A stretch of DNA of 52,414 bases, from positions 1 through 52,414 of IMG/VR virus record IMGVR_UViG_3300044957_000556, one strand, 5' to 3'. This DNA comes from a virus (taxonomy: Duplodnaviria; Caudoviricetes). The notes under the pieces are model-generated. The model had not been told where the DNA came from and did not search any database. It saw only the letters and a program-made list of their open reading frames with translations. Made by a program: the position numbers and the translations under genes. Position 1 is the first letter of the stretch, and each line of letters begins with the position of its first letter. Shown here one piece after another: positions 38,746 to 51,665 of the stretch.

Positions 38746-39641
38746 AAAAACTGCTAATGGCCGGTGCTCTTGTATTGGCATCACTATCATCACAAGCACA
38801 ACAAACTATTTCTATTGTTTGGCCATTTGGCATGGGCGATACCCAGGCTCAGTATAGCCGTAGCCTAGTTGAAGAACTCAACAAGAATCAACGAACCTAC
38901 ACTTTTATTTTAGAAAACAAACCAGGAGCAGGTGCAACCATTGGTGCCAAGCACGTGGCAGGCATGCCTAACTCTGTGTTGTCAGCATCTACTGCCTTTT
39001 TTGTGCGTCCCAACTTCTATCCCGAAGAAAGCCACAAAGTAATCGATTTCCGTCCACTAATGACACAGTGTGCCGCGCCCATGGTCATTGTGAGCAAGAA
39101 GTATCGCAACTGGAATGAAGTTGACAAGTCAAAGCCTATCAATATTGGTATTTCAGGACTGGGTGCTACATCACATCTAATGGCCATGGAGATTGTCAAA
39201 CGCTATCCCAATGCACAACCTGTGCCCTATAAAGGTACCCGCGAAGCCAGCATGGATGTGATTGCAGGAAACATTGAACTCAGCGTGGCGTTTTTAGGCG
39301 AAGTTGAAGGGTTCTTGGACAAAGGCGACTTATTTGCACTTGGTATTTCTGGACGCAAACTAGTACGTGGTGTTCCCACACTGGAAAGTCAAGGATTTGC
39401 TGGTGTTGGAGAAGTAGTAAACATGCACAGTCTGCAAGTTCCCAAGACCATGCCTGAGGCGCAATATGCAGAACTACGTGACATGGTTATGCAAGCCGCA
39501 CGAGCAGACAGTGTACAGCGGGCCTATGCAGTAGATTACTGCGAACCCAGCAACCTTGATGCCGCGGCTACACAGCGTTGGTTTGACGGGCAAGTTGCAT
39601 TGTGGAAACGACTAAGCCAAGGTGTTAAACTGGCTAAATAA
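38742..39641 (+). CDS. Tripartite tricarboxylate transporter substrate-binding protein (Bug/TctC)
   Basis: Signal peptide; VWPF..G, ENKPGAGATIG, VPYKG, VPTL.E.G. Confidence 0.88.
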   Translation: MKKLLMAGALVLASLSSQAQQTISIVWPFGMGDTQAQYSRSLVEELNKNQRTYTFILENKPGAGATIGAKHVAGMPNSVLSASTAFFVRPNFYPEESHKVIDFRPLMTQCAAPMVIVSKKYRNWNEVDKSKPINIGISGLGATSHLMAMEIVKRYPNAQPVPYKGTREASMDVIAGNIELSVAFLGEVEGFLDKGDLFALGISGRKLVRGVPTLESQGFAGVGEVVNMHSLQVPKTMPEAQYAELRDMVMQAARADSVQRAYAVDYCEPSNLDAAATQRWFDGQVALWKRLSQGVKLAK

Positions 39642-39779
39642 CAATGGCAGCGCCAACCAAGGGGTTGACGCCGGTTACAACGACGCCTAGGGTCTAGCTC
39701 TTTTACTGCTTCAAACGCAGAACGCCGAACCGTAGCGAGCAATCGCAAGCACATTGATTATCAATATTGGATATAAAAA

Positions 39780-40739
39780 ATGAAAAAAACTACTAAGATT
39801 CGTTGGGTTATTGCCCATGAGCCTTTGAACCTTTTCCTTCGTGCCGCCAAAGATTTTGAGCGTCGTGTAAACGAACAACAAAGCGAGCACATGATTGAAG
39901 TTGAAATCATGACTCTAACAGAGTACAGCCAGCGTTACAACGATGGTGTTGTTGTTACCAAGCATGATCTGCTAGATCTAATGGAAGCAGGCAAGATTGA
40001 AATGAGCCAGATGTACACAACATGGCTTGCTGAGAAGTATGAACAAGACTTCTTGGTATTTGATCTACCATTCCTGTTCAAAGACCATGAGCATGCTACC
40101 CGTGTGCTTGAAGGTGAAGTTGGCGAGACTCTGCTCTCTAAACTCACAGACAAGTCAAATGTACGTGGACTCAGCTTCACATACTCGGGCGGTTTCCGTC
40201 AGATGATTGCCAACAAGAAAGTTTCTACTCTAGAAGAACTTGTTGGCACTCCTGTGCGTTCAAACCGTAATCCTGTTGCACAAGCAACTATTTCTGCACT
40301 GGGCATGAAGCCTGTTGTGGCCGAAGTAGAAGATCTGCGCCGGGTAGTGGTAGAAGGTCAAGCCGAAGGTGGCGAAACCAACTATCCGCGTATGTACCCA
40401 CTGCGCCAAAACGAAGTTACCAAGTCAGTGATTGACACTGGTCACAGCTTGTTCTTGACAAGCATGATCATTGGTGACCAGTTCTGGAACAGCTTGAGTG
40501 CTGAAGTTCAGGCAGTTATCAAGCAAGCCGCTGTTGCTGCAGGCCGTGAAGAACGTGCTGAAACCATTCGTGACGGTGCTCGTGCCGAACAGCGTTTGGT
40601 TGCAGAAGAAGGTGCCAACATTGTCAAGTGGACACAAGAACAACGCGAAGCCGCCAAGGCCGCATTGTCAGATGTTTACAATCAGTTCCGTGATTCATTC
40701 ACACCTGGTCTGATCGAGGCAATCGAAAAGAAGGCTTGA
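39780..40739 (+). CDS. TRAP transporter substrate-binding protein (DctP-like), no obvious signal peptide
   Basis: FDLPFLF, GGFR, G..VR, TGH. Confidence 0.82.
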   Translation: MKKTTKIRWVIAHEPLNLFLRAAKDFERRVNEQQSEHMIEVEIMTLTEYSQRYNDGVVVTKHDLLDLMEAGKIEMSQMYTTWLAEKYEQDFLVFDLPFLFKDHEHATRVLEGEVGETLLSKLTDKSNVRGLSFTYSGGFRQMIANKKVSTLEELVGTPVRSNRNPVAQATISALGMKPVVAEVEDLRRVVVEGQAEGGETNYPRMYPLRQNEVTKSVIDTGHSLFLTSMIIGDQFWNSLSAEVQAVIKQAAVAAGREERAETIRDGARAEQRLVAEEGANIVKWTQEQREAAKAALSDVYNQFRDSFTPGLIEAIEKKA

Positions 40740-40759
40740 TAGGTACGCATAACCACAAG

Positions 40760-40786
40760 AAACCCTACCAAGTGTAGGGTTTTTTG
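40760..40786 (+). terminator. Rho-independent terminator
   Basis: AAACCCTAC/GTAGGGTTT stem followed by T run. Confidence 0.8.
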
Positions 40787-40868
40787 TTGACCTGTAAAAG
40801 AAAAACGCATGCAATCACTACTGAGATACAAATATCTTCACAAGATTAACTTTTTGGACTACCAGGGG

Positions 40869-40897
40869 TTGACAAAATATAAATAAACATATAAAAT
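40869..40897 (+). promoter_or_regulatory. Composite sigma70 + T4-type late promoter of the tRNA operon
   Basis: TTGACA-17 nt-TAAAAT with TATAAATA (40878-40885) nested in the spacer. Confidence 0.75.
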
Positions 40898-40937
40898 GAG
40901 TACATGTTGTAAAAAACAACAAGGATAAACAAAGCTA

Positions 40938-41075
40938 ATGAAAACGCAATCTTTACATAGACTAAACTCATACATAGCCAAACAGGCAGGCTTTATGCCT
41001 ACCTATTGGTCTGTGATTAGTCTATTTAATGATCGCACACCAGAGGGAACCAGGGTCCAGGAGACCATGACGTAA
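40938..41075 (+). CDS. Putative attenuator leader peptide (45 aa)
   Basis: SD AAGGA; MKTQSLHRLNSYIAKQAGFMPTYWSVISLFNDRTPEGTRVQETMT; 3' end overlaps the antiterminator strand. Confidence 0.6.
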   Translation: MKTQSLHRLNSYIAKQAGFMPTYWSVISLFNDRTPEGTRVQETMT

Positions 41076-41133
41076 ACAAAAGTTTAACCAAACTCCAAGG
41101 ACCCTAGGACTTAAAACCCTAGGGTTTTTTTTT
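41050..41133 (+). terminator. Attenuator: terminator with competing antiterminator
   Basis: Terminator ACCCTAGG(41101-08)/CCTAGGGT(41118-25) plus T run; antiterminator AGGGTCC-A-GGAG(41052-63)/CTCC-AA-GGACCCT(41093-105). Confidence 0.75.
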
Positions 41134-41158
41134 GCTTTAAACACAAGGAAAAAACAGA

Positions 41159-41338
41159 TTGAAAGAAAAAATAGATTACAGTACAATTGCCGATCGTATT
41201 GTTGAACAAGTAGTCGAGCATTCCAGATTCGTATTAAGAAAGGATGAGAAGCAAAAACTATTTCAAAGCAAGATAGATCAAGCTCGACAAGAGATCGAAG
41301 ACAGGGCAACATGCCCTATATGGCACACAGATCGCTAG
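41159..41338 (+). CDS. Small hypothetical protein (59 aa, TTG start)
   Basis: SD aagga; open frame KEKIDYSTIADRIVEQ... Confidence 0.45.
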   Translation: MKEKIDYSTIADRIVEQVVEHSRFVLRKDEKQKLFQSKIDQARQEIEDRATCPIWHTDR

Positions 41339-41549
41339 GTTGAGCACAGTGGACGTAGGCAACGAGGGCCATGAGACCACTATAAAAAATCTCTAGACGG
41401 GCGGACAGTAGGATGAACTCCTAGGCAATAACTAGGATTGTAAAAATACTGGGTAGGGTATAACCCTATCTACAGAGTAGCAATACTCTGTATCTTAAAA
41501 CACATTGCCGAGCAGTCAAGTTAATGAGTAGTGTGTTTTAAGATACAAT

Positions 41550-41636
41550 GGAGGTGTAGAAAAATTGTTAACCCCAGTGGACTGTAAATCCGCCGCCCGC
41601 AAGGTACTGCTGGTTCAACTCCAGCCGCCTCCACCA
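41550..41636 (+). tRNA. tRNA-Tyr(GTA)
   Basis: Acceptor GGAGGTG/CGCCTCC, loop CTGTAAA, long variable arm, CCA. Confidence 0.9.
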
Positions 41637-41642
41637 AGAATG

Positions 41643-41760
41643 CATACCGTCGCTTTACGGTGTGGCAGGACGGCTTCCCCAGTCATGACTGGATCCACGA
41701 AGTGGGCTTACGAGTGCTCCCAAACTCCGACTAGAGTTCTTCGCAAAAGAACATAGCACT
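41643..41760 (+). ncRNA. Unidentified multi-hairpin RNA inside the tRNA array
   Basis: Consecutive stems CATACCGT/ACGGTGTG, CCAGT/ACTGG, CCAC/GTGG, AGTGCT/AGCACT. Confidence 0.5.
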
Positions 41761-41766
41761 AATTTT

Positions 41767-41841
41767 GGTCTCAAAGTGTTCATGGACGCACACGAGCCTG
41801 TCACGCTCGAAGAAGGGGATCGTTACCCCTTGGGACCGCCA
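41767..41841 (+). tRNA. tRNA-Asp(GTC)
   Basis: Cloverleaf, CGAGC-CTGTCAC-GCTCG, CCA. Confidence 0.9.
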
Positions 41842-41847
41842 AATAAT

Positions 41848-41921
41848 ATTGCGTTGGATTTCTGGTAGATCCTTAGCTCTTCAAGCTAATGAGACGGGTT
41901 CGATTCCCGTACGCGATGCCA
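41848..41921 (+). tRNA. tRNA-Glu(TTC), atypical loop (C at position 33)
   Basis: ATTGCGT/ACGCGAT acceptor; TTAGC-TCTTCAA-GCTAA; canonical T arm. Confidence 0.65.
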
Positions 41922-41928
41922 AGTTTAT

Positions 41929-42003
41929 TCCAGAGTAGCACAGCGGTAGTGCAGTTGACTGTTAATCAATTGGTCGTTGGTTCGATCCCTGCCTCTGGAG
42001 CCA
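41929..42003 (+). tRNA. tRNA-Asn(GTT)
   Basis: Cloverleaf, loop CTGTTAA, CCA. Confidence 0.9.
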
Positions 42004-42008
42004 AATAT

Positions 42009-42098
42009 GCTCCTATAGTTTAATGGTAAAACGGCGGGCTTATACCCCTTAGCAACAAATAATTGGCTGATGCAGGATCGAATCCTGCTAGGGTACCA
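42009..42098 (+). tRNA. tRNA-Ile(TAT)-like with long variable arm, imperfect acceptor stem
   Basis: Loop CTTATAC; T arm GCAGG/CCTGC; extra arm; CCA. Confidence 0.55.
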
Positions 42099-42103
42099 AA
42101 CAT

Positions 42104-42180
42104 GTATCGGTAGTTCCAACTGGCAGAACGACAGTCTCCAAAACTGTATGCTGGGGGTTCGAATCCCTCCCGGTACGCCA
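42104..42180 (+). tRNA. tRNA-Trp(CCA)
   Basis: ACAGT-CTCCAAA-ACTGT. Confidence 0.9.
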
Positions 42181-42186
42181 AACAAT

Positions 42187-42264
42187 GCAACGGTGGCAGA
42201 GTGGCCCAATGCAACGGATTGCAAATCCGTAAAACCGTAGGTTCAAATCCTACCCGTTGCTCCA
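42187..42264 (+). tRNA. tRNA-Cys(GCA)
   Basis: ACGGA-TTGCAAA-TCCGT; U73 discriminator. Confidence 0.92.
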
Positions 42265-42269
42265 AATAT

Positions 42270-42359
42270 CGAAGAGTGGTAGAGCCCGGTTTAATGCACC
42301 TGTCTTGAAAACAGACGATCGGAAACGGTCTGTGAGTTCGAATCTCACCTCTTCGGCCA
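42270..42359 (+). tRNA. tRNA-Ser(TGA)
   Basis: Loop CTTGAAA, long variable arm, G73. Confidence 0.9.
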
Positions 42360-42365
42360 TATAAT

Positions 42366-42457
42366 AGTGAGTTGGATGAGAGGTTTAAATCGGCACCCTG
42401 CTAAGGTGTTGTCTTGGGAAACCAGGGCCGTGGGTTCGAATCCCACACTCACTGCCA
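42366..42457 (+). tRNA. tRNA-Ser(GCT)
   Basis: Loop CTGCTAA, long variable arm, G73. Confidence 0.9.
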
Positions 42458-42458
42458 T

Positions 42459-42535
42459 GCGCCTTTAGCTCAGTGGATTAAAGTATCACGCTACGAACGT
42501 GAGGGTCGGAGGTTCAAGTCCTTCAAGGCGTGCCA
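42459..42535 (+). tRNA. tRNA-Arg(ACG)
   Basis: TCACG-CTACGAA-CGTGA. Confidence 0.88.
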
Positions 42536-42541
42536 TTTAAT

Positions 42542-42617
42542 GGTATCCGTAGTGTAGTGGCCTGTACCCTGATCTATGAAAGCAGTAGAACCGGATCGAT
42601 ACCGGTCGGATACCCCA
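42542..42617 (+). tRNA. tRNA-His body with ATG anticodon (probably mutated GTG)
   Basis: G-1:C73 pair typical of His; loop CTATGAA; one anticodon-stem mismatch. Confidence 0.6.
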
Positions 42618-42625
42618 AAGATTTT

Positions 42626-42702
42626 GCCCCGGTGACGGAATTGGTATACGTGTTGGTCTTAGAAGCCAAATTTTAGGAGTTCGAGTCTCCTCTGGGGCAC
42701 CA
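42626..42702 (+). tRNA. tRNA-Leu(TAG), short variable loop
   Basis: TTGGT-CTTAGAA-GCCAA; A73. Confidence 0.85.
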
Positions 42703-42710
42703 AATACAAT

Positions 42711-42785
42711 GGGCTGTTAGTGATAACGGGAGCACGCTGCCTTTGCACGGCGAAGGTAAGAGTTCGATTTTCTTACGGTCCACCA
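42711..42785 (+). tRNA. tRNA-Ala(TGC)
   Basis: Loop TTTGCAC; G3:U70. Confidence 0.8.
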
Positions 42786-42793
42786 AGTCTGAT

Positions 42794-42870
42794 GCGGATG
42801 TGACGGAATAGTTATACGTATCGGACTTTAAATCCGAGTTTTGAGGGTTCGAGTCGGACCGCTACTACCA
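42794..42870 (+). pseudogene. Chimeric/degenerate tRNA (Leu-like 5' half, TTA anticodon, non-matching 3' end)
   Basis: TCGGA-CTTTAAA-TCCGA; T stem and acceptor stem do not pair after GTTCGAGTC. Confidence 0.6.
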
Positions 42871-42875
42871 ACTTT

Positions 42876-42951
42876 CCGCCTGTAGTCTAATGGATAAGGC
42901 AACGGTCTTCTACACCGTCAGATGTGGGTTCGAATCCTGCCAGGCGGGCCA
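42876..42951 (+). tRNA. tRNA-Arg(TCT)
   Basis: ACGGT-CTTCTAC-ACCGT. Confidence 0.9.
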
Positions 42952-42967
42952 AGCATTAAATAGTCAT

Positions 42968-43894
42968 ATGAAAACTATTTTAGTGACAGGTGGCGCAGGT
43001 TTTTTGGGCAGCCATCTCTGCGACAGGCTCATAAAAAACGGCAACAAGATCATATGTGTGGACAATCTCAGCACTGGATCTGCCCGCAATATTGAACATC
43101 TTCAAAATCATCCCAACTTTGTATTTGTTGAGCATGACATACGCCGTTATCAAAAATGGGCAGTGGATGAGATATATAATCTTGCTTGTCCTGCCAGCCC
43201 TGAGCAGTATCAGAAAAAACCAGCATACACTATAGAAACCTGTGTGTTGGGCATACTCAACATGCTAGAGCTCGTACGAGAAACTGGGGCTCGCATACTA
43301 CAAGCCAGTACCAGTGAAATATATGGCGATCCTTTGCAACATCCGCAAACAGAATCCTACTGGGGTAACGTGAATACGCTGGGTCCAAGAGGCTGTTACG
43401 ATGAAGGCAAACGCTGTGCCGAAAGCATGTTAATCGCCTATAGAGATCAGTATCATTGCCAGATAAAAATAGCTAGAATATTCAATACCTATGGCCCTAG
43501 AATGCAACATCATGATGGGCGTGTGGTCAGCAACTTTATCGTGCAGGCTTTGCAAGGCAGCGACATAACCTTTTACGGAACAGGTCGGCAGACCAGGAGT
43601 TTCTGTTATGTGTCAGACACTGTGGAAGCCTTGGTAAGACTAATGGCCACTGTGGATTTTGAAGGCCCTGTAAACATAGGTAATCCCGCAGAAATCACTT
43701 TGCTGGAGTTGGCTGATGTTATTTTGACCAAAACCCAAAGTTCAAGCCAAAAGATATTTCTTGCTCCGGTACGCGATGACCCTGCCAAACGCCAGCCAGA
43801 TATTACTCTGGCCAAACAGATGTTGGGCTGGAGTCCACAAGTCACTATAGATCAAGGTCTAGATCAGACCATACATTGGTTTTCCGGCTCTTAA
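42968..43894 (+). CDS. UDP-glucuronate decarboxylase (UXS-like NAD-dependent epimerase/dehydratase)
   Basis: TGGAGFLGSH, LACPASP, STSEIYG, YDEGKR, RIFNTYGP; start at ATG 42968 after the tRNA and TAAATA. Confidence 0.9.
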   Translation: MKTILVTGGAGFLGSHLCDRLIKNGNKIICVDNLSTGSARNIEHLQNHPNFVFVEHDIRRYQKWAVDEIYNLACPASPEQYQKKPAYTIETCVLGILNMLELVRETGARILQASTSEIYGDPLQHPQTESYWGNVNTLGPRGCYDEGKRCAESMLIAYRDQYHCQIKIARIFNTYGPRMQHHDGRVVSNFIVQALQGSDITFYGTGRQTRSFCYVSDTVEALVRLMATVDFEGPVNIGNPAEITLLELADVILTKTQSSSQKIFLAPVRDDPAKRQPDITLAKQMLGWSPQVTIDQGLDQTIHWFSGS

Positions 43895-43961
43895 CTCAGT
43901 TGGATAGAGTGCCAGTCTTCGAAACTGGAGGTCGTGGGTTCGAATCCTGCAGAGCCGGCCA
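43885..43961 (+). tRNA. tRNA-Arg(TCG)
   Basis: CCAGT-CTTCGAA-ACTGG; overlaps the last 10 nt of the upstream CDS. Confidence 0.88.
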
Positions 43962-43966
43962 GATTT

Positions 43967-44040
43967 TCCCGGATAGTTAAATGGTATAACGGTCGGCTGA
44001 TAACTGGCTATTACAAGTTCAATTCTTGTTCTGGAAACCA
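43967..44040 (+). tRNA. tRNA-Ile(GAT)
   Basis: GTCGG-CTGATAA-CTGGC; CCA. Confidence 0.8.
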
Positions 44041-44134
44041 TTTTTACCAAATGTTTAAACGCAAGTGTGCTGTAAGGCGTTATATAAGTAACACAGACAC
44101 ATTTCTGTGTTAGTTTCTAACCAAAGGAGAACTT

Positions 44135-44332
44135 ATGAAACTTGTAGCTACCCTAATCGCATCGTTGTTTGCAGTATCTGCTTTTGCACAGTCTCCAGCA
44201 GCCCCTACAAAGAAAGAAGAAGCCAAGCCTGCCGCTTCTGCGCCTGCTGCCATGCCAGCTGAAAAGAAAGCCGACGCTCTTAAAAGCGACGCTAAGAAAG
44301 ACGACAAAAAAGCTGAACCTGCTAAAAAGTAA
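44135..44332 (+). CDS. Small secreted Lys/Ala/Pro-rich protein
   Basis: SD aaggag; signal peptide ending AFA; low-complexity tail. Confidence 0.75.
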   Translation: MKLVATLIASLFAVSAFAQSPAAPTKKEEAKPAASAPAAMPAEKKADALKSDAKKDDKKAEPAKK

Positions 44333-44511
44333 TCCGGCGCCAACTATCGTACTCACCTTTGATGACAGTGAGTACGAAATAGAAGGAACGGATTCTTTAC
44401 ATGTAGGATATTGCAGACCTGAATTAGTACACGACACAGTTGACATAGAGCTCAGTGATTATGATAAGTTTAGGTTGTGGTTGGCCAGGCAACTGGCGCT
44501 AAAGAAGTATG

Positions 44512-44544
44512 AAGAAACCTGGGGTTGACTCAGGTTTCTTTTAT
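44512..44544. terminator. Probable bidirectional terminator
   Basis: AGAAACCTGGG/CTCAGGTTTCT stem between convergent ORFs. Confidence 0.55.
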
Positions 44545-45645
44545 TATATCCTTAGCAAGATCAGTGAGCTCCCCTAGATGCTTGGTCACAGTTTCCGCTG
44601 GTATATTGCGCAGGGTCAGTATGCTTTGCATTTTCTTTACAAAATCTTTTCGAAAATCTTGATTGTAGTTTACAGATCCCATGGTCAGCTTGAACTGAGA
44701 TAACATATTTTTTTGTGCAGTGGTAAGTTGATACTGCACACAGTGCTGGTCCAAAATATCGGCAATCACTTGTTTTTCATCAGCAGTAAGTATGCGCCAT
44801 TCTAACCAGGATGGTGCCTGAAGATTGACCAATACTGTTTGTAAACGATTTTTATTGCACCATTCCATCAAGGCAGCAATATATTGTATGTTTAAAGGCT
44901 GTACCACTGTGTTTACGTGAATGTGTTGATTGGGCAAAGTTTTTTTCAACATCACAATGTTTGCCTGCACAGTATCCCACTGCGCTGGATATCTCATAAA
45001 GTTATATGAGCTTTCGATTCCATCTAGGCTCACTTGAATGTCAACATGAGCTGCCTGTTTCAGCAAGGCCAACTGCGTTGGAAGCAAGATTGTTGCATTG
45101 GTCACAATGTTTATTTTTAGTTTTCGCTCTATGGCTTTTTCTAACAGCAAAATATTTTCCTTGGCAAAGAAAAACTCGCCGCCGATAAAACTAACTGATT
45201 CAAGATCAGACAACTGCTCCAAGGCTTCCTGCACTTGTTGGTTGTGATTGATCACAGGATAAGATTCTATCCAGCCCAATGTCCGACGTTCGCTGCCCAG
45301 AGCAGTGCTATAAGTTGGGTCGCACATGAAACATTTGAGATTGCAGGTGTTATTGACCAAGATTTCAAGATGTATTATTTTTGATCTGTTGTCAGATTGA
45401 AAAAAATGATTGTAACGTTGTCTAAAACTGGGCTGTCCTTTGAGTTCTTGATTGGCACAAAGTCTGCAACCTAAAGGCAAAGGCTTTTCAGACTGTAGAT
45501 GTTGTTTCAGTTCCTGTAACTCAGTGCTGGCTAGATACTGAGAAATTGATTGCGCAGGCATAGGCTCTTTATAATGACAACAGGGTTTGTATTCAGGGCC
45601 CGAATCAATACGAATGTTGATAAATGGTTGTATGCAATAAGGCAT
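44530..45645 (-). CDS. Radical SAM protein with N-terminal twitch/SPASM-like Cys cluster
   Basis: CNLKCFMC, GGE, VTNAT, SLDG; start moved to ATG 45645 (upstream part is antisense tRNA). Confidence 0.82.
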   Translation of the reverse strand: MPYCIQPFINIRIDSGPEYKPCCHYKEPMPAQSISQYLASTELQELKQHLQSEKPLPLGCRLCANQELKGQPSFRQRYNHFFQSDNRSKIIHLEILVNNTCNLKCFMCDPTYSTALGSERRTLGWIESYPVINHNQQVQEALEQLSDLESVSFIGGEFFFAKENILLLEKAIERKLKINIVTNATILLPTQLALLKQAAHVDIQVSLDGIESSYNFMRYPAQWDTVQANIVMLKKTLPNQHIHVNTVVQPLNIQYIAALMEWCNKNRLQTVLVNLQAPSWLEWRILTADEKQVIADILDQHCVQYQLTTAQKNMLSQFKLTMGSVNYNQDFRKDFVKKMQSILTLRNIPAETVTKHLGELTDLAKDIIKET

Positions 45646-45656
45646 AAGATATTTAA

Positions 45657-45731
45657 GGGGAGTTAGTATAGTTGGGAAAACATTGCGCTTGCACCGCAAA
45701 GTCAGGGGTTCGACTCCCCTACTCTCCACCA
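45657..45731 (+). tRNA. tRNA-Ala(TGC)
   Basis: TTGCG-CTTGCAC-CGCAA; G3:U70; CCA. Confidence 0.9.
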
Positions 45732-45769
45732 AATACAATGTTGTAAGATCATTTAGATAAGTAAAAATA

Positions 45770-46193
45770 CTATGCGAGAGTATGCACCCAGCGGCGCTCC
45801 TGGATCTGCTGGCAATGATGATAGGGTGAGAGGCCCTAGGCCACGCGAGGGCTATACATGTCTCGATAGGCTCGTGAAAGTATTGCTGTATGAAGCCGAG
45901 AGAAAAGTGTTTTGGATGCGGGTTCGATTCCCGCCAGGTCCACCATAAGAGGATTGTATGGATGACATAACTAGATTCGCTATTGGATTTATTGTAGCAA
46001 CCGTGGTCATGCTGTTAGTCCTTTTATAATGGGCCTGCATTGGATTTTGACAGGGCAAAGAGTAACAGAGTGGACAGCACGACAGGAGTAGTCGTTAAAA
46101 GCAAAACAACGTAAACGCAAACGACGAACAGTTTGTATTGGCCGCCTAAACTTGGTCTAGGGTTTGCCGGGTTCCTCGTAACAGAATACCCGG
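45770..46193 (+). ncRNA. ssrA: Circularly permuted two-piece tmRNA
   Basis: Acceptor piece ends in T arm + CAGGTCCACCA at 45945; coding piece starts GGGCCTG at 46031 (G3:U70); tag ANDEQFVLAA* at 46117-46149; outer ends approximate. Confidence 0.88.
45958..46029 (+). CDS. Putative 23-aa hydrophobic peptide in the tmRNA intervening segment
   Basis: SD gagga; MDDITRFAIGFIVATVVMLLVLL. Confidence 0.4.
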   Translation: MDDITRFAIGFIVATVVMLLVLL

Positions 46194-47090
46194 TCAAAAT
46201 TCTCGAGAATAATCAGCAGTTGAGATTTCAGCAAGATGTTGCGTTTTCCAGCGATCAATCACTGATTGTTCTATGCCATATTTTTTAAGAACTTGCTCTG
46301 TGATTTCAACTTTTTGAGGAGTCGAATCTTTTCTAGTGTGTTTCCAGATGCGCATAGAATCCCAGCAATCAAACAAACTGGCTTGTTGTTGTATCTCTTC
46401 AAGACTCAGTGTTTGCCAGATTCCGCAAAAGTTTACAAATTCGTACTCATCATCGGTCATTGGCATCACTGATTCAGCATCGCAGTAGTTGAAGATATAA
46501 AAGTTTGACCATTCTGTAGCACCCGGAAAAGTTTTCCATGTTTGATATGGGCCAAATCTTGCTTGCATATGAGTCCAAAACTTTTCAAGTTCGGCTGTGG
46601 CCCATATCCAAGGAGTGGTATTAAAAGGTGTAGGAACGCCATCTGGCACGTGGTCCAGTATGTCAAGGGCAGGCACGTATTGTTGCCGGAATGTGTTTCC
46701 ATTTTTAAAATATGCAACACGATACCTGTCACCAGGTTTGAAGAAATCAATGTCTGTTGGTTTGAGCAAAAAATCTTTACAATCAAATACTATGGTATCT
46801 TGGAATCTAGGATCTATAGAAAATCGAACTTTGTTGACTTGTTGTTCGCAGTATCCTGCCATTCCGTGCATAGCACCATCTACTACTTCTACTTGCCATG
46901 AACTATCAAAGATATCCTTTACTAGGTTTGTAAATGATCCTATGTCCGACGTCTCTGTGTGCAACGGGTTTGGTTGCCCCCAGGAAATTGTGATGGCCTG
47001 ATTTCCCAGCCAGTTCTTATTAAGACAATGGCAACACAGTTCAAACTGGGCAAGATCTCCTGAGTAAGTGGCAATAAAAAGTTTGTGCAT
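46194..47090 (-). CDS. Hypothetical protein, possible GT-A-like (DUF6492-like)
   Basis: QQVNK, VFDCKD; start ATG 47090 five nt after TAAATA. Confidence 0.6.
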   Translation of the reverse strand: MHKLFIATYSGDLAQFELCCHCLNKNWLGNQAITISWGQPNPLHTETSDIGSFTNLVKDIFDSSWQVEVVDGAMHGMAGYCEQQVNKVRFSIDPRFQDTIVFDCKDFLLKPTDIDFFKPGDRYRVAYFKNGNTFRQQYVPALDILDHVPDGVPTPFNTTPWIWATAELEKFWTHMQARFGPYQTWKTFPGATEWSNFYIFNYCDAESVMPMTDDEYEFVNFCGIWQTLSLEEIQQQASLFDCWDSMRIWKHTRKDSTPQKVEITEQVLKKYGIEQSVIDRWKTQHLAEISTADYSREF

Positions 47091-47105
47091 GGAGCTATTT
47101 ACAGG

Positions 47106-47135
47106 TTGACAACAAAGTTGTAAATATAATACAAT
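47106..47135 (+). promoter_or_regulatory. Sigma70 promoter with nested TAAATA
   Basis: TTGACA-18 nt-TACAAT upstream of tRNA-Glu. Confidence 0.55.
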
Positions 47136-47167
47136 AGCATAGTTCATTAAAAATCTATTTGGTCTGT

Positions 47168-47242
47168 GCTCGGTTTGTCTATGGGTTAGAACACACGCCT
47201 TTCACGCATGTAAGAGGGGTTCGATTCCCCTACCGAGTACCA
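47168..47242 (+). tRNA. tRNA-Glu(TTC)
   Basis: Loop CTTTCAC; GCTCGGT/ACCGAGT; CCA. Confidence 0.82.
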
Positions 47243-47399
47243 TATAAAAACATATTTTGATGCCTATTAGATTATCTAGTTGATCGCAGAAAATACGGTG
47301 CGAGATGAATATGTTTTTATATGGTAAGTAATGTGAGAGAAAGTGCCCAGTCAGCGCCCCGATTCACAGACTCCGCATAATCGTAAGCGGAACCTACAT

Positions 47400-47476
47400 G
47401 CGGGTAGATAGGACAAGGGGCGTCCAGCAGCCTTCCAAGCTGACAATGCGGAGTTCGACTCTCCCTACCCGCTCCA
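47400..47476 (+). tRNA. tRNA-Gly(TCC)
   Basis: CAGC-CTTCCAA-GCTG; U73; CCA. Confidence 0.82.
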
Positions 47477-47479
47477 GAA

Positions 47480-47715
47480 CGTTCCGGCGACGACGGATAG
47501 TGCGACCCGCACGATGAGAAGTGGTGTAACAACCACGGGTGGTCCCAGTCTTACCTAACTGGCGCTGGCAATGCGACAACGGATCCTGCGTGTAGCGGGA
47601 ACATTAACGACCTTAGATTATCCTGCTTAGGAACCGGAAGCCGATGGGTGGATGGTAGTAATAGAAACCAACCAGGATGTCGTTGTGTGGCGACCGCCGA
47701 GGGTCGCAGAGCATT
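47480..47715 (+). ncRNA. Candidate large structured ncRNA (~230 nt)
   Basis: Long-range stems TGCGACCC/GGGTCGCA and ACAACG-G-ATCCTG/CAGGAT-GT-CGTTGT plus local hairpins. Confidence 0.55.
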
Positions 47716-47736
47716 TTTTTCAACAAGGAGAATAGC

Positions 47737-47964
47737 ATGGCACAAATCACAAGTGAAAAAGCAGTAGAAGCAATAGGTAATCGTTACGATTTAGTCCTGA
47801 TCGCTAGCCGTAGAGCTCGTGAACTCACACACGGTCATGCTCCGCATATCAACACAAAAGATACTACAACGGTCAAAGCCATTCGCGAGATTGAACAAGG
47901 TCATATTGGTAGAGATTACCTTTATAAATCTCAAGACATTAACCGCAAGCGGCCAAAATCGTAG
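47737..47964 (+). CDS. rpoZ: RNA polymerase omega subunit
   Basis: IGNRYDLVLIASRRAREL, TVKAIREIEQG; SD aaggag. Confidence 0.88.
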   Translation: MAQITSEKAVEAIGNRYDLVLIASRRARELTHGHAPHINTKDTTTVKAIREIEQGHIGRDYLYKSQDINRKRPKS

Positions 47965-47995
47965 ATTTTTAACAAAAAAGATATATACACATATT

Positions 47996-48430
47996 ATGCT
48001 GTCATTCATTCGAGAACTCACCGATCCATTGCTGGAATACCTTAAAGACGATCCTGTTCGCCCAGAGATTCCTCGCGAGTTTCGTGTGAGCGGCCAGCGT
48101 TTTGTCAGCGCCTTGGTCGAAGACCAACCCAAAGCCATGGTCTGTGTGAGCTTGCATGATTTTGTTCCCGAAACTGTGGAAGATCTGGCACGTAATCCTG
48201 ACCAGCCTACCACTGCTATATTCTACACCATCTGGAGTTATGTACCTGGCGCAGCCGGTGAACTGTTGTTTGCTACAGTGAATGAAATACGCAGACAGTT
48301 TCCTACTGTCACCCGTTTTGTCACCCTGAGTCCAAAAACTGAAATGGCTCGCAAGTTCCATATCCAAAATGGTGCACAGGTATTGAGATAAAACGACAGC
48401 ACTGTGAACTACGAATATATACTTGCATGA
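47996..48430 (+). pseudogene. Conserved phage protein with premature TAA at 48389-48391
   Basis: DDPVRPEIP, FYTIWSY, VTLSPKT; frame continues *NDSTVNYEYILA to a TGA that overlaps the next ATG. Confidence 0.55.
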
Positions 48431-48594
48431 GTAAATTCACAGACACTCTAAAGGCCGCGCTAGAGAAAAAACATGCCGCGGCTCATTCTGACACCAAATG
48501 GGATGACAAAGATGAAGGTAAATCCAAATCTAAAAAACCCGTACCTGTGATCACAGGCAAACCTGTTAAAAAAGTAACAGGTCGCGGACGTTAA
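48427..48594 (+). CDS. Small basic hypothetical protein (55 aa)
   Basis: ATGA-coupled; MSKFTDTLKAALEKKH...TGRGR. Confidence 0.55.
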   Translation: MSKFTDTLKAALEKKHAAAHSDTKWDDKDEGKSKSKKPVPVITGKPVKKVTGRGR

Positions 48595-48604
48595 GGAGAA
48601 CTTT

Positions 48605-48856
48605 ATGAAACGTATGATCGAAATCCGCGCCGCAGAAGGCGGGGAAGATAGCAAACTATTTGTCAGTGACCTTGCTGACGCATATCAACGACTTGGAAAT
48701 AAACTTGGCTGAACTACCCGCCTGATAGATGTGTGTCTTGGCGAGTGTTCGATACTTGTTGAAGGCGCAGACACAGCCGAACAAGCTCGAAGGCTGCTCC
48801 AGAAACGTCATGGTCCCAGAGCAGTACCTTATATTCCACACATGATACTCAACTAG
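48605..48856 (+). pseudogene. Class I peptide-chain release factor remnant (PCRF domain start) with in-frame TGA, lacking GGQ
   Basis: SD aaggag; IEIRAAEGGEDSKLFVSDLADAY...LG*TT...ILVEG. Confidence 0.7.
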
Positions 48857-48995
48857 GTGACTGTCAGCCTTGCTCACTTGGCCAACGTCAATAAGTGCCG
48901 ATAGCAAAATGACCGGGTGACGATTATCGCGAGGTAACAAGAGCCGCAGAAACCAAATGTCTGCGCCGGACTGGGTAACCGGCATACATATTTCC

Positions 48996-50168
48996 ATGTC
49001 CAAGATTATTTCCATAGAACCTGCGATAGATCCTACAGCAAGACCAACATTTTTATTGGATTGGGAGTTAACTTTAAAATGCAATCTTGATTGTAGTTAT
49101 TGTCCTTCTGAAGGACCTTGGCGATCACACGACAACAAAAGCCCTCATCCGCCATTGGATGAATGTTTGGCTTCTATTGATTTTATGTACACATATGTTG
49201 ACTTGTACATGGCAAAGAAACCACGTTGGAGTCGTGCTGTAGTGTTAAACATCTACGGAGGCGAAAGTCTATTTCATCCTAACATAGTTGAAGTGCTGGA
49301 ACAGGTCAAAGAGCGTCACAAATCTTATCAAGATCGATGGCCTTTGACTGTAACTTGCACCACCAATGCCGTAGTGGGGCCATCATTGATGTCTCGTATA
49401 GCAGATTTCATTGATGAGTTCACAGTCAGTTATCACTGCGAAAATCTAGTAAAACAGAAACAGCAAGTTTTAAAAAATATGTTGTTGCTCAAAGAAAAAA
49501 ATCGAAGATTGAAATGCATTGTGCTCATGCACGGTAACTACGATTACTGGCCCGAGCTTGAAGAAGTAATAAGTTTTTGTCAAGCCAATGATATAAAATA
49601 TCTGCCACGGCAACTTGACGGAGATGTAAACTCAAACTATGGTCAAAAACAAATCACATGGTTTCAAAATCTCTGGCAGACTCGCAGTCCTCAAAAATCT
49701 AAACTCAGACAAACAGAACTCACAGATGGTCAAGTCACTGACAGTCAGTTAAGCCGTGTTGGTAGAGCCTGCTGTGGTGGCAGATTGATGTGTACCAACA
49801 GTGATTTTAGGCAGCCAATATTTTATGTTCCTAACAATCATTTTGAAGGATGGAGCTGTAGTGTGAACTGGTTTTTTCTAGCCATACGTCAAAGCACCGG
49901 AGAAATATTTGTAAACAAAGATTGCCGAATGAACTTTGATGGAACAATGAGTCCATTGGGGTTTCTCAAGAATTCAGCCCATTTGTTGACACAAACACAG
50001 CAACAGCTAGAACAAGGTGTTCCATTTATGATCTGTGCCAGAGAACGGTGCTATTGCGGCTTGTGCGCACCCAAGGCTCAGACCCCTGAACAACTTTTGG
50101 ATATCATGAAAAAACATGTAGCAGACGGCCATGTTGAGTCTTGTAAATCAACCAACCCTAGTGTATAA
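48996..50168 (+). CDS. Radical SAM protein
   Basis: CNLDCSYC, YGGE, TTN, SYH, C-terminal CYCGLCAPK. Confidence 0.85.
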   Translation: MSKIISIEPAIDPTARPTFLLDWELTLKCNLDCSYCPSEGPWRSHDNKSPHPPLDECLASIDFMYTYVDLYMAKKPRWSRAVVLNIYGGESLFHPNIVEVLEQVKERHKSYQDRWPLTVTCTTNAVVGPSLMSRIADFIDEFTVSYHCENLVKQKQQVLKNMLLLKEKNRRLKCIVLMHGNYDYWPELEEVISFCQANDIKYLPRQLDGDVNSNYGQKQITWFQNLWQTRSPQKSKLRQTELTDGQVTDSQLSRVGRACCGGRLMCTNSDFRQPIFYVPNNHFEGWSCSVNWFFLAIRQSTGEIFVNKDCRMNFDGTMSPLGFLKNSAHLLTQTQQQLEQGVPFMICARERCYCGLCAPKAQTPEQLLDIMKKHVADGHVESCKSTNPSV

Positions 50169-50177
50169 TCACAGTAT

Positions 50178-50252
50178 GCCGGATTAGCTCAGGGGTAGAG
50201 CAACCGCCTTGTAAGCGGTAGGTCGTCAGTTCAAATCCGACATCCGGCACCA
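50178..50252 (+). tRNA. tRNA-Thr(TGT)
   Basis: ACCGC-CTTGTAA-GCGGT; promoter TTGTAA-17-TATAAT at 50141-50169. Confidence 0.92.
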
Positions 50253-50279
50253 TCTTTTTACAACTCTACAAAGGCATCT

Positions 50280-50438
50280 ATGAAATCAGGATCCAACTAC
50301 CGAATGAGCAAGCAATCTAAACGCTATCTAGCCACTATCATTGATCCGCATCGTCGCGGCGAAATCAAACGTGGTACTGTTCAAGCCGAAATAACCAGCC
50401 AATACCAAGTTTGTCATCCTCGTGGTGATAAGAAATAA
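50280..50438 (+). CDS. Small basic hypothetical protein (52 aa)
   Basis: MKSGSNYRMSKQSKRYLATIIDPHRRGEIKR... Confidence 0.5.
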   Translation: MKSGSNYRMSKQSKRYLATIIDPHRRGEIKRGTVQAEITSQYQVCHPRGDKK

Positions 50439-50439
50439 G

Positions 50440-50982: not shown

Positions 50983-51011
50983 ACTGTTACTTAACTGATC
51001 TTAAATACTGA

Positions 51012-51584: not shown

Positions 51585-51665
51585 ATTTTTGCAGTACCGC
51601 TTAAGTTATTTAATATCTTGCGGTTGGCAAACTCAGACAACTTTCAAAATAAAAATAAAATACGC

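What the first reader, a model, noticed from the sequence alone, without database searches (positions are those of the whole stretch)
40869..41133. Ribosome-mediated attenuator in front of the phage tRNA array: a possible general sensor of tRNA depletion
Seen in sequence, in order: a dual promoter (TTGACA-17-TAAAAT with nested TATAAATA); an SD and a 45-codon leader ORF (40938-41075); a strong intrinsic terminator (ACCCTAGG/CCTAGGGT + T9, 41101-41133); then about 15 tRNA genes from 41550. The last leader codons contain AGGGTCC-A-GGAG (41052-63), which pairs with CTCC-AA-GGACCCT (41093-105) and takes away the terminator's 5' arm. Established: this is the geometry of trp/his-type attenuators. A ribosome reaching the stop blocks the antiterminator and transcription ends; a ribosome stalled upstream allows readthrough. 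Unlike those, this leader is not enriched for one amino acid. It uses 19 of 20 amino acids (no Cys) and 34 different codons, including ATA, AGA, AGG, CTA, TTA and TGG. That count is near the uniform-random expectation, so it is only suggestive. Inference: loss of almost any host tRNA (anticodon nucleases such as PrrC, PARIS AriB, VapC or RloC, or starvation) would induce the phage's replacement tRNAs. This would be an inducible anti-defence system; I do not know of one described in phages.
Basis: partly seen in the sequence, partly recalled or inferred. Interest (0 to 1): 0.9.

Follow-up and report, generated by a model that had tools for sequence, protein, structure and literature searches.

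The report
Leader-peptide switch before phage tRNA genes
A giant lake-water phage places a tiny translated gene, wired to a stop/go RNA switch, ahead of a small protein gene, a structured RNA and its tRNA genes, so it probably transcribes them more when ribosomes read slowly, a control I found no published account of for tRNA genes.

Summary
The window's antiterminator duplex is -21.2 kcal/mol against -10.4 +/- 2.3 for shuffles, 0 of 500 as good.

It is one of 69 distinct elements in related IMG/VR giant-phage contigs. Each has a strong sigma-70-like promoter and a 32-53-codon ORF, leaderless in 58 of 69. The ORF ends 19-33 nt before a terminator whose 5' arm can instead pair with the ORF's last codons. 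Codon-position bias and dN/dS of about 0.35 indicate translation. All 53 elements with at least 1 kb downstream are followed by same-strand tRNAs.

Best reading: a ribosome-mediated attenuator that terminates when the leader is read to its end.

The "any-tRNA sensor" idea is only partly supported. Nineteen of 66 leaders hold all 20 amino acids against 1.4 expected, but the window's 19 is not significant. There is no codon-level match to phage anticodons. Promoter-like sites, including 41159-41187, often lie between terminator and tRNAs. The anti-defence role is untested.

This scan found the same family before on other DNA. My literature searches found no published account.

The parts
40869..40897 (+). 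Promoter TTGACA-17-TAAAAT with the spacer motif ATAAATAA
   Evidence: Scores 11 of 12. The same promoter with an ATAAATAA-like spacer heads the relatives' elements.
40904..40925 (+). 5' UTR: vestigial leaderless AUG-UUG-UAA mini-ORF (40904-12) inside a small hairpin, then the SD AAGGA (40921-25)
   Evidence: Sequence. The hairpin is -4.6 kcal/mol. In 58 of 69 relatives the leader ATG sits 5-10 nt after the -10. The 6 elements with a UTR of 29 nt or more all carry a GGA-containing SD-like motif.
40938..41075 (+). Leader ORF, 45 codons, MKTQSLHRLNSYIAKQAGFMPTYWSVISLFNDRTPEGTRVQETMT
   Evidence: Family coding signal: differences at codon positions 1/2/3 are 89/84/138; dN/dS is about 0.35.
40950..41035 (+). 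Long hairpin inside the ORF; CCAA 40978-81 pairs with UUGG 41006-09, which holds the Trp codon 41007-09
   Evidence: -27.8 kcal/mol, z = -5.9. In 40 of 66 leaders the UGG pairs with CCA in the MFE fold, and its two G's are the most-paired positions (0.97, 0.94).
41052..41063 (+). Antiterminator 5' strand, inside the last 8 codons
   Evidence: In 64 of 68 elements this strand lies within -30..+12 nt of the stop codon.
41093..41105 (+). Antiterminator 3' strand, overlapping the terminator 5' arm
41101..41133 (+). Intrinsic terminator: 8-bp stem (11 bp with flanking A-U/G-U pairs), 9-nt loop, T8
   Evidence: The stem is paired in 99.4% of cells of 66 aligned sequences.
41145..41338 (+). SD (AAGGA 41145-49) and a 59-codon ORF with a TTG start, the first gene behind the terminator
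   Evidence: Homologues start with ATG in L012, L015 and L042. One search's criterion (a 40-75-aa ORF starting within 100 nt) listed 45 of 62 elements, about 41 of which I judged by eye to be family members. Eleven database relatives, none with a functional name.
41159..41187 (+). Promoter-like site TTGAAA-17-TACAAT overlapping the start of the small ORF (uncertain)
   Evidence: 10 of 12. It is TTGACA-17-TAAAAT in L002, L003, L008 and L102 and absent in L012, L015 and L019.
41339..41470 (+). Conserved structured RNA of unknown family
   Evidence: z = -5.1 for 41339-41549. Eleven-sequence alignment A2: 12 of 14 predicted pairs have compensatory changes. No Rfam match at E <= 1.
41550..42951 (+). 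First block of the tRNA array (14 genes, Tyr to Arg-tct)

Best explanation
This is a ribosome-mediated (leader-peptide) transcription attenuator at the head of the phage's translation-RNA region.

Host RNA polymerase starts at the near-consensus promoter (40869-97). A ribosome translates the 45-codon leader.
- If the ribosome reaches the last 8 or so codons or the stop (41073-75) while polymerase is making 41093-41133, it covers AGGGTCCAGGAG (41052-63). The terminator (41101-33) then folds and transcription ends.
- If the ribosome lags, stalls earlier or never loads, 41052-63 pairs with 41093-105. This takes the terminator's 5' arm, and polymerase runs on into the 59-codon ORF, the structured RNA and, at least in part, the tRNA array.

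The family's leaders carry unusually many different amino acids. The quantity gauged is therefore most likely overall decoding speed or aminoacyl-tRNA supply, not one amino acid.

Shown by comparison: the element, its translation, and the two exclusive helices. Inferred: the direction of the switch, what is sensed, and how much of tRNA transcription depends on it.
For: 1. Anatomy in the window.

2. Family. I defined 69 distinct elements from 172 fetched loci plus the window. The definition was an ORF of 28-56 codons, with Trp at residues 15-30, ending 10-45 nt before the terminator motif. Features not set by that definition:
- Distance from the -10 to the ATG is 5-10 nt in 58 of 69.
- Antiterminator duplex is -16 kcal/mol or stronger in 67 of 69 (mean -20.4). 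The same terminator motif in 91 other contexts reaches that in 2 of 91 (mean -8.7). Each element's own shuffles average -11.1, and the real value is lower in 69 of 69.
- Before the 3' arm exists, the 5' arm is paired upstream with probability 0.76 (68 leaders) against 0.29 (80 control terminators).

3. Covariation on a plain MAFFT alignment of 66 sequences. Antiterminator: 88 cells changed on both sides against 37 in shuffles (0 of 500 as high); 69.1% paired against 33-54% when slid. Terminator: 26 against 7.3. The register table shows 3-6 pair types at 13 of the 16 positions upstream of the CCC.

4. Geometry. The 5' strand overlaps the stop codon in 50 of 68 elements and lies within -30..+12 nt of it in 64 of 68. 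Masking a ribosome footprint gives mean P(terminator) of 0.84 or more for the last 8 codons and 0.91 at the stop, against about 0.5 elsewhere (66 leaders). For the window: 0.08 with no ribosome, about 1.0 from codon 35 on.

5. Translation. There is a third-position excess (89/84/138, P = 2e-4, 21 nearest-neighbour pairs). dN/dS is 0.35 over 54 pairs. Elements with a UTR have an SD.

6. Context. 53 of 53 elements with at least 1 kb downstream have same-strand tRNAs (50 within 1.5 kb, none on the other strand). In a second, shorter leader class of the same phages, the first tRNA starts 37-64 nt after the start of the terminator's 5' arm.

7. Amino-acid diversity. All 20 types occur in 19 of 66 leaders against 1.4 expected. 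At least 19 types occur in 33 against 8.0. Cys is present in 55 against 23.8.

8. Cultured relatives. Two of the three I examined (Sinorhizobium phage Phosso, Agrobacterium phage Atu_ph07) show the same layout before their main tRNA arrays.

9. Weak hint. Contigs from two RNA libraries lie on 40955-41158. DNA carry-over is not excluded.
Against: - No transcript ends, ribosome footprints or mutants exist. Everything is comparative or modelled.
- Promoter-like sites scoring 10 of 12 or better between terminator and first tRNA number 19, against 5.3 +/- 2.3 in shuffles. They occur in 18 of 57 intervals, several directly before the first tRNA. The window has one at 41159-41187. tRNA transcription may therefore not depend on read-through here.
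- Leader codons are not enriched for the phage tRNAs' Watson-Crick cognates: 0.331 against 0.348 in genes, higher in 11 of 31.
- The window's 19 amino-acid types are not significant (P = 0.21). It lacks Cys although the array has tRNA-Cys.
- Asp and Glu are about 1% each in the sensing part and 7% and 12% in the last 8 codons.
- At equilibrium with the whole terminator present, the family is near balance without a ribosome: mean P(terminator) 0.56, below 0.5 in 29 of 66. The default state rests on a kinetic argument.
- A dN/dS of 0.35 also fits a peptide with a function of its own.
- The terminator motif was the search key for about two thirds of the loci, so its conservation is partly by construction.
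- The sequences are related, so the counts are not independent events.
Confidence: 0.66

Rival explanations
1. The attenuator is real but gates only the small protein gene (41159-41338) and perhaps the structured RNA. The tRNA array is transcribed mainly from its own promoter or promoters, and the link to tRNAs is synteny.
For: - A promoter-like site lies at 41159-41187. It scores 11 of 12 in four close relatives.
- Strong promoter-like sites are enriched between terminator and first tRNA (19 against 5.3 +/- 2.3). Perfect TTGACA-17-TATAAT sites sit 40-45 nt before the first tRNA in L036 and L041.
- A small ORF follows the terminator in 45 of 62 elements's criterion (about 41 family members by eye).
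Against: - 39 of 57 intervals have no site scoring 10 of 12 or better.
- In elements without the small ORF, such as L007, L040 and L085, the structured RNA and tRNAs follow the terminator directly.
- In the short-leader class the first tRNA starts 37-64 nt after the start of the terminator's 5' arm, which leaves no room for a promoter.
- The 41159 site is absent in L012, L015 and L019.
Confidence: 0.3
2. The element is centred on Trp. The single invariant UGG, held in a hairpin, is the regulatory codon, and the switch reports Trp-tRNA supply for an operon whose most constant member is tRNA-Trp.
For: - Trp sits at residues 18-27 in all 69 elements, at 20-23 in 60.
- UGG is the most strongly paired position in the leader.
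- tRNA-Trp is the most constant tRNA within 2.5 kb (35 of 42 arrays). It is the commonest tRNA type among the first three positions (21 of 126 slots over 42 arrays).
Against: - Trp within residues 15-30 was part of my class definition.
- There is one codon, not a run.
- The CCA:UGG pairing can explain the conservation at the RNA level.
- Masking the Trp position gives no family-wide dip in terminator probability.
- Short-leader classes lack Trp.
- The excess of all-20 leaders is not explained.
Confidence: 0.12
3. This is a stand-alone small gene or small RNA with its own promoter and terminator. The second pairing only shapes mRNA stability or stop-codon access, and there is no regulated read-through.
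For: - dN/dS is 0.35.
- The ORFs are annotated as hypothetical proteins in Atu_ph07 and Phosso.
- RNA-library contigs lie on the leader up to the terminator.
- Liberated attenuator RNAs and leader peptides can act in trans in Sinorhizobium (PMC6614838 and PMC7968998; search listing and start of abstract only).
Against: - The SD of the next ORF, or a tRNA, follows within a few to about 30 nt of the T-run, with no promoter between them in most relatives.
- The alternative helix specifically consumes the terminator arm and covaries.
- Peptides differ almost completely between subfamilies.
Confidence: 0.1
4. The nascent peptide arrests the ribosome, as TnaC or SecM do, in response to a small molecule or to a tunnel-binding factor.
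For: There is an invariant Trp, with recurring QP...YW and NDR-like motifs in several subfamilies.
Against: - The distance from Trp to the stop varies from 11 to 31 codons. The spacing from Trp to the D-R motif varies from 2 to 17 residues in the leaders read by eye.
- The QP and W conservation coincides with the RNA pairing CCA:UGG.
- Subfamilies share no arrest motif.
Confidence: 0.05

Closest known systems
Leader-peptide transcription attenuators of enterobacterial amino-acid operons (trpL, hisL, leuL, pheL; multivalent thrL, ilvL). Textbook knowledge, recalled.
   Same: A promoter-proximal short translated ORF. An intrinsic terminator whose 5' arm can instead pair with an upstream strand. 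That strand lies in the footprint of a ribosome at the end of the leader. A hairpin sits inside the leader.
   Different: - There is no run of codons for one amino acid; the family is enriched in amino-acid diversity instead.
- Most members are leaderless mRNAs.
- Modelling gives read-through, not super-attenuation, when the leader is untranslated (window P(terminator) 0.08).
- The genes behind it are a small protein, a structured RNA and tRNAs of a phage, not biosynthetic enzymes.
whiB7 uORF attenuator of mycobacteria (PMC10274678; abstract read)
   Same: Stalling in a uORF is believed to cause antitermination. Loss of many amino acids, tRNAs or synthetases activates it. The uORF sequence varies between species while its composition is kept.
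   Different: The whiB7 uORF is specifically enriched for alanine and controls a transcription factor in a cell. This element is in a phage, is enriched in diversity, and precedes tRNA genes. There is no sequence relation.
Inducible tRNA operon (L-array, trn) of Anabaena PCC 7120 (PMC8421152 and PMC10272220; abstracts read)
   Same: A supernumerary tRNA array whose expression rises when translation is impaired.
   Different: By those abstracts it is controlled by a protein repressor (TrcR, RHH family), not by a leader peptide and terminator. It is cellular, on a megaplasmid, not phage.
T-box riboswitches (recalled)
   Same: A terminator/antiterminator leader that reports tRNA charging.
   Different: T-boxes bind tRNA directly and need no translation. 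No T-box or any other Rfam family matches 40869-41550 at E <= 1.
toiL uORF of E. coli topAI-yjhQ (PMC12121999; search listing and start of abstract only)
   Same: A uORF that senses translation stress of several kinds.
   Different: A different operon. I did not read the mechanism beyond the abstract's first lines.

Membership tests
Ribosome-mediated (leader-peptide) transcription attenuator | Short ORF near the promoter that is translated | tested here: met
   The ORF is kept in 66 unique leaders despite divergence. Third-position excess 89/84/138. dN/dS 0.35. Leaderless ATG or an SD is present. This is comparative evidence only.
Ribosome-mediated (leader-peptide) transcription attenuator | Intrinsic terminator between the leader and the regulated genes | tested here: met
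   41101-41133, -14.9 kcal/mol plus T8. 99.4% of cells are paired, and 4 of 8 pairs have changes on both sides. This is partly by construction, because the motif was the search key.
Ribosome-mediated (leader-peptide) transcription attenuator | Mutually exclusive antiterminator sharing a strand with the terminator | tested here: met
   Window: -21.2 against -10.4 +/- 2.3 (0 of 500). Family: 67 of 69 reach -16 kcal/mol or stronger, against 2 of 91 controls. Covariation.
Ribosome-mediated (leader-peptide) transcription attenuator | Ribosome position decides which helix forms | tested here: inconclusive
   Geometry and masking models agree. No experiment exists.
Ribosome-mediated (leader-peptide) transcription attenuator | Regulated read-through into the downstream genes | not testable with these tools
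   Only contigs of RNA libraries were available. They cannot show transcript ends.
trp/his-type amino-acid attenuators | Tandem codons for the amino acid made by the operon | tested here: not met
   The window uses 34 distinct codons in 45, with no run. The family is enriched in diversity.
trp/his-type amino-acid attenuators | A 1:2 hairpin that gives termination when the leader is not translated | tested here: not met
   Window P(terminator) is 0.08 without a ribosome. The family mean is 0.56.
T-box riboswitch | Match to the T-box covariance model | tested here: not met
   No Rfam match in 40869-41550 at E <= 1.
Arrest peptides (TnaC/SecM type) | Conserved arrest motif at a fixed distance from the stall site | tested here: not met
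   Only Trp is invariant. The distance from Trp to the stop is 11-31 codons.

The most novel reading that the evidence does not exclude
The leader is a built-in test translation that samples nearly all amino acids. When any host tRNA runs short, through anticodon nucleases, phage-induced host shut-off or starvation, the ribosome lags and the phage switches on its own tRNA operon together with a small protein and a structured RNA of unknown role. That would make it an inducible, self-correcting supply of translation parts and a counter to tRNA-targeting defence.
Probability: 0.3. Interest if true: 0.9.

Novelty: new variant of a known kind. Interest (0 to 1): 0.74.

Why it matters
Phage tRNA genes have been discussed as codon-usage helpers and, more recently, as a way round tRNA-cleaving defences (PMC10264068, PMC11464382, PMC11555353; search listing and start of abstracts only). 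How phages regulate these genes is little explored.

A translated leader wired to a terminator at the head of the tRNA region would give a feedback loop between decoding capacity and tRNA supply. It would use the classic attenuation mechanism for a new purpose and with a new kind of leader, one that is diverse rather than monotonous.

It is directly testable. The promoter and terminator are of the host type, so reporter fusions should work in ordinary laboratory bacteria. Two cultured relatives, Phosso and Atu_ph07, carry look-alike elements.

It also marks a conserved small protein and a conserved structured RNA as likely members of the same response.

Tried and rejected
Searches that gave nothing:
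- Rfam (evalue mode, 39000-52414) gave nothing between 40869 and 41550. T-box and known riboswitches are therefore dropped.
- blastn of 40700-41600 against cultured phage records matched only tRNA-Tyr of Acinetobacter phage 133.
- My first promoter pattern had the wrong spacing and found nothing. A regex replaced it.
- The small ORF has no Pfam or PHROG family. It has 11 unnamed relatives, no Atlas hit and no tblastn hit in cultured phages.

Ideas tested and not upheld:
- Codon-level mirror of phage anticodons: absent.
- Amino-acid match of short leaders to the tRNAs within 1.5 kb: nominally significant in 2 of 7 (L120 P = 0.004, L142 P = 0.001), not in L022, L066, L091, L132 or L140.
- Leaders match their own proximal array slightly better than other phages' arrays (0.437 against 0.411, P = 0.0014). 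Shared ancestry can produce this.
- The window's model shows termination when a ribosome stalls at codons 3-17. This is not a family feature, so I do not build on it.
- There is no family-wide dip of terminator probability at the Trp codon.
- Distinct amino acids in the part before the last 8 codons exceed an order-permuted control only slightly (16.92 against 16.71).

Other negative results:
- E. coli phage 121Q, a relative by DNA polymerase, has promoter-like sites directly before its tRNAs and no + strand terminator-like site in 71400-75600. No attenuator was seen there.
- RNA libraries: in the four runs laid, bins 40700-40954 and 41159-41311 had no cover, while 40955-41158 and the tRNAs did. 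These are contigs of relatives, so the holes are no evidence. DNA runs X1-X3 may be the source sample.
- Supplementary files were not opened. Supplementary Table S4 of PMC6102473 (the tRNA list of Atu_ph07) was not seen.
Full report
**What is in the window**

The window is one whole IMG/VR viral contig, estimated about 15% complete. Its family-B DNA polymerase is nearest to those of giant myoviruses: Sinorhizobium phage Phosso at 50% identity and Agrobacterium phage Atu_ph07 at 46%.

Downstream of a DctP-like gene (39780-40739), which has its own terminator-like hairpin (40760-40782 + T6; sequence, scored on the opposite strand), lie in order:
- TTGACA-17-TAAAAT (40869-97, 11 of 12);
- a 40-nt 5' UTR with a small hairpin and AAGGA;
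- a 45-codon ORF (40938-41075);
- AGGGTCCAGGAG (41052-63);
- CTCCAAGGACCCT (41093-105);
- the hairpin ACCCTAGG / CCTAGGGT plus T8 (41101-33).

The whole leader folds far better than shuffles (z = -6.4), and the minimum-energy fold contains the antiterminator, not the terminator. Taken alone, the antiterminator is -20.8 kcal/mol, the terminator -14.9 kcal/mol, and a long hairpin inside the ORF (40950-41035) -27.8 kcal/mol.

**Relatives**

The DctP-like protein brought in 51 related loci. In these the promoter, the terminator and the region behind it align with the window, but the leader body does not. Even so, every one of the 17 loci holding the terminator motif has an ORF of 33-53 codons in the same place.

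The terminator motif, used as a pattern, brought in 120 more stretches.

I scanned all 172 loci and the window for the motif on both strands. I called a 'W-leader' any ORF of 28-56 codons, with Trp at residues 15-30, that ends 10-45 nt before the motif. After removing identical copies, 168 motif sites remained:
- 69 W-leaders (66 unique peptides);
- 8 short leaders of other classes;
- 91 other sites, which are gene ends or the opposite strand of two-way terminators.

The ORF and the Trp are part of the definition. The following features are not.

**Evidence for the switch**

- The ATG lies 5-10 nt after the -10 in 58 of 69 elements, so these are leaderless mRNAs. Six have a UTR of 29 nt or more with an SD, the window among them. 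In three the regex placed the -10 on the start, and in two no promoter was found.
- The stop-to-terminator distance is 24-33 nt in 67 of 69.
- The best duplex between the 60 nt before the terminator and its 5' flank and arm averages -20.4 kcal/mol. It averages -8.7 for the 91 control sites with the same terminator motif, and -11.1 for each element's own dinucleotide shuffles (real value lower in 69 of 69). It reaches -16 or stronger in 67 of 69 elements against 2 of 91 controls.
- With the 3' arm not yet made, the 5' arm is paired upstream with probability 0.76 (68 leaders) against 0.29 (80 controls).
- On a sequence-only alignment of 66 elements, 16 of which have the 5' strand in another register and so count against the model, the antiterminator has 88 cells with changes on both sides against 37 in shuffles (0 of 500 as high). 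It is 69.1% paired against 33-54% when slid.
- The terminator has 26 such cells against 7.3. Its sequence was the search key for most rows.
- A register-anchored table shows three to six pair types at 13 of the 16 positions upstream of the invariant CCC. There the partners were chosen by energy, so the energy controls are what carry the weight.

**Is the leader translated?**

Among 21 nearest-neighbour pairs of equal length, differences fall 89/84/138 on codon positions 1/2/3 (P = 2e-4). dN/dS is about 0.35 over 54 pairs. Leaders with a UTR have an SD. So the frame is read and the residues matter to some degree.

**How the ribosome would decide**

The antiterminator's 5' strand overlaps the stop codon in 50 of 68 elements and lies within -30..+12 nt of it in 64 of 68.

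I masked a 30-nt footprint at each codon and computed the probability of the terminator stem.
- In the window it is 0.08 without a ribosome, 0.08-0.2 around codons 18-29, and about 1.0 from codon 35 to the stop.
- Over 66 leaders it is about 0.5 for most codons, at least 0.84 for the last 8 codons, and 0.91 at the stop.

A ribosome that finishes the leader favours termination. One that lags leaves the antiterminator free, and that helix can form before the terminator's 3' arm exists. This direction is inferred, not shown. At equilibrium the two states are close: without a ribosome the mean is 0.56, below 0.5 in 29 of 66.

**What is sensed?**

The window's 19 amino-acid types in 45 codons are not unusual. 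Against windows of phage proteins that start with Met and hold a Trp, P = 0.21.

Across the family the picture differs. Nineteen of 66 leaders hold all 20 types against 1.4 expected. Thirty-three hold at least 19 against 8.0. Cys is present in 55 against 23.8. This supports a gauge of decoding in general.

Several results count against a simple 'mirror of the tRNA set':
- Leader codons match the phage anticodons no better than phage genes do (0.331 against 0.348; higher in 11 of 31).
- Asp and Glu sit mostly in the last 8 codons.
- The window's leader lacks Cys, though tRNA-Cys is in its array.

Two weaker signals point the other way. tRNA-Trp and tRNA-Cys are the most constant tRNAs within 2.5 kb (35 and 27 of 42). 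Leaders fit their own array slightly better than other phages' arrays (0.437 against 0.411). Shared descent may explain both.

The invariant UGG pairs with CCA in 40 of 66 minimum-energy folds and is the most strongly paired spot of the leader. Its conservation, and that of the 'QP' upstream, may be as much RNA as peptide.

**What is controlled?**

All 53 elements with at least 1 kb downstream are followed by same-strand tRNAs (median 425 nt, 50 within 1.5 kb, none on the other strand). In the short-leader classes the first tRNA begins 37-64 nt after the start of the terminator's 5' arm.

In the window's class, however, the terminator is followed first by other features:
- an SD and a small ORF (41159-41338). 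One search's criterion listed such an ORF in 45 of 62 elements, and about 41 belong to the family by my reading. It has no known family;
- a conserved structured RNA (41339 to about 41470). It has z = -5.1, and 12 of 14 predicted pairs have compensatory changes in 11 sequences. It has no Rfam match.

Promoter-like sites scoring 10 of 12 or better between terminator and first tRNA are enriched: 19 against 5.3 +/- 2.3, in 18 of 57 intervals. Some sit directly before the first tRNA or before the structured RNA. The window's own site (41159-41187, 10 of 12) overlaps the small ORF's start. It is TTGACA-17-TAAAAT in four close relatives but absent in L012, L015 and L019. The share of tRNA transcription that depends on read-through is therefore open, in this window especially.

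**Transcription data**

No run holds this phage as raw RNA reads. Contigs of two freshwater RNA libraries lie on 40955-41158; one is a 121-nt contig matching 40973-41045 with 4 differences. This is a weak hint that a relative's leader is transcribed, and DNA carry-over is not excluded.

**Cultured relatives**

- In Phosso, a promoter, a UTR with an SD, a 49-codon ORF (19 amino-acid types by my reading), a 10-bp antiterminator and a terminator lie about 400 nt before the main tRNA array.
- In Atu_ph07, a 42-codon ORF (18 types), a 10-bp antiterminator and a terminator lie about 130 nt before the array.
- Both ORFs are annotated as hypothetical proteins.
- The Atu_ph07 genome paper contains none of the words attenuat-, leader or terminator (PMC6102473, word search).
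- E. coli phage 121Q shows no such element.
- These three were read by eye and by folding, without controls.

**Comparison with what is known**

The element works like the leader-peptide attenuators of amino-acid operons (recalled textbook knowledge). It fails two of their defining features: the run of cognate codons, and termination in the absence of translation.

In logic it is nearest to the whiB7 uORF, which by its abstract is activated by loss of many amino acids, tRNAs and synthetases (PMC10274678). The nearest case of an inducible tRNA array, in Anabaena, uses a protein repressor (PMC8421152 and PMC10272220, abstracts).

Full-text searches for leader peptide, attenuation, uORF, antiterminator, and tRNA genes, operon or array with phage returned no paper describing such control of tRNA genes. 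Subscription journals are not covered.

**Earlier notes of this scan**

The same family, and like elements in other phages, have been reported several times on other DNA. Those notes prompted my amino-acid-diversity test and pointed me to the whiB7 and Anabaena papers. I repeated the tests on my own loci.

New here, as far as I can see from those notes:
- the enrichment of internal promoters;
- the lack of a codon-level match;
- the Asp/Glu placement;
- the CCA:UGG pairing;
- the RNA-library contigs;
- the two cultured phages.

**Verdict**

The structure is real and conserved. It is very probably a translation-coupled attenuator. A general decoding gauge is the best reading of what it senses. 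Its hold on the tRNA array in this window, and any role against defence systems, remain to be shown.

Noticed in passing
window 41339-41470 (alignment A2; relatives L008, L013, L019, L044, L062, L085, L088, L098, L108, L128): A conserved structured RNA lies between the attenuator or small ORF and the tRNAs. Its invariant motifs include AACGAGG in a hairpin loop and AAACGGGCGG. Twelve of 14 predicted pairs have compensatory changes. There is no Rfam match. In some relatives it has its own promoter-like site (L076, L083).
   Followed up: partly
window 41159-41338: A small conserved protein (45-67 aa in relatives) with the shared pattern ...VL(T/S)xE...L.Q.K(I/L).RA... is the first gene behind the terminator in most elements. 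It has no known family, and only unnamed relatives were found.
   Followed up: partly
window 41490-41548: A 15-bp inverted repeat (GTATCTTAAAACACA ... TGTGTTTTAAGATAC) ends 2 nt before tRNA-Tyr and is conserved in L002, L003, L008, L024, L102 and L172. It may be a processing site.
   Followed up: no
L066, L087, L091, L132, L135, L140, L142; L120; L022: The same phages have other leader classes without Trp. One is a 21-22-codon leaderless ORF (MLNTNLNLLGTTGNAAEDT...) with an antiterminator and terminator, followed within 37-64 nt by tRNA-Gly. L120's 26-codon leader has 3 Cys and is followed by Trp, Pro, Cys, Met and Thr tRNAs.
   Followed up: partly
many loci, e.g. L053, L058, L082: The terminator CCCYGGAACTAAACACTCCRGGG, loop included, recurs after ordinary genes in these phages. 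The conserved loop is therefore a feature of the phages' terminators, not of the attenuator.
   Followed up: partly
window 40904-40912: At the place where relatives start their leaderless ORF, the window has AUG-UUG-UAA (two codons). Its leader is instead translated from an SD-led ATG 34 nt further on. L060 has the nearest such leader.
   Followed up: partly
window 45839-46240: The phage encodes a circularly permuted (two-piece) tmRNA of the betaproteobacterial type, with tag ANDEQFVLAA (ARAGORN; Rfam RF01850 at 130 bits and RF04321 at 124 bits).
   Followed up: no
window 42543-42617 and 42008-42097: ARAGORN calls tRNA-His with anticodon ATG, where relatives have GTG. tRNA-Ile(TAT) is 90 nt long, as in relatives.
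   Followed up: no
PV764938.1 about 419670-419975; MF403008.1 339060-339330 (minus strand): The cultured giant phages Phosso (Sinorhizobium) and Atu_ph07 (Agrobacterium) have a leader ORF, a 10-bp antiterminator and a terminator ahead of their main tRNA arrays. The ORFs are annotated as hypothetical proteins.
   Followed up: partly
window 47106-47135 and 45546-45575: Later tRNAs of the window (Glu 47168, Ala 45657) are preceded by promoter-like sites scoring 10-11 of 12, without any leader or terminator.
   Followed up: no
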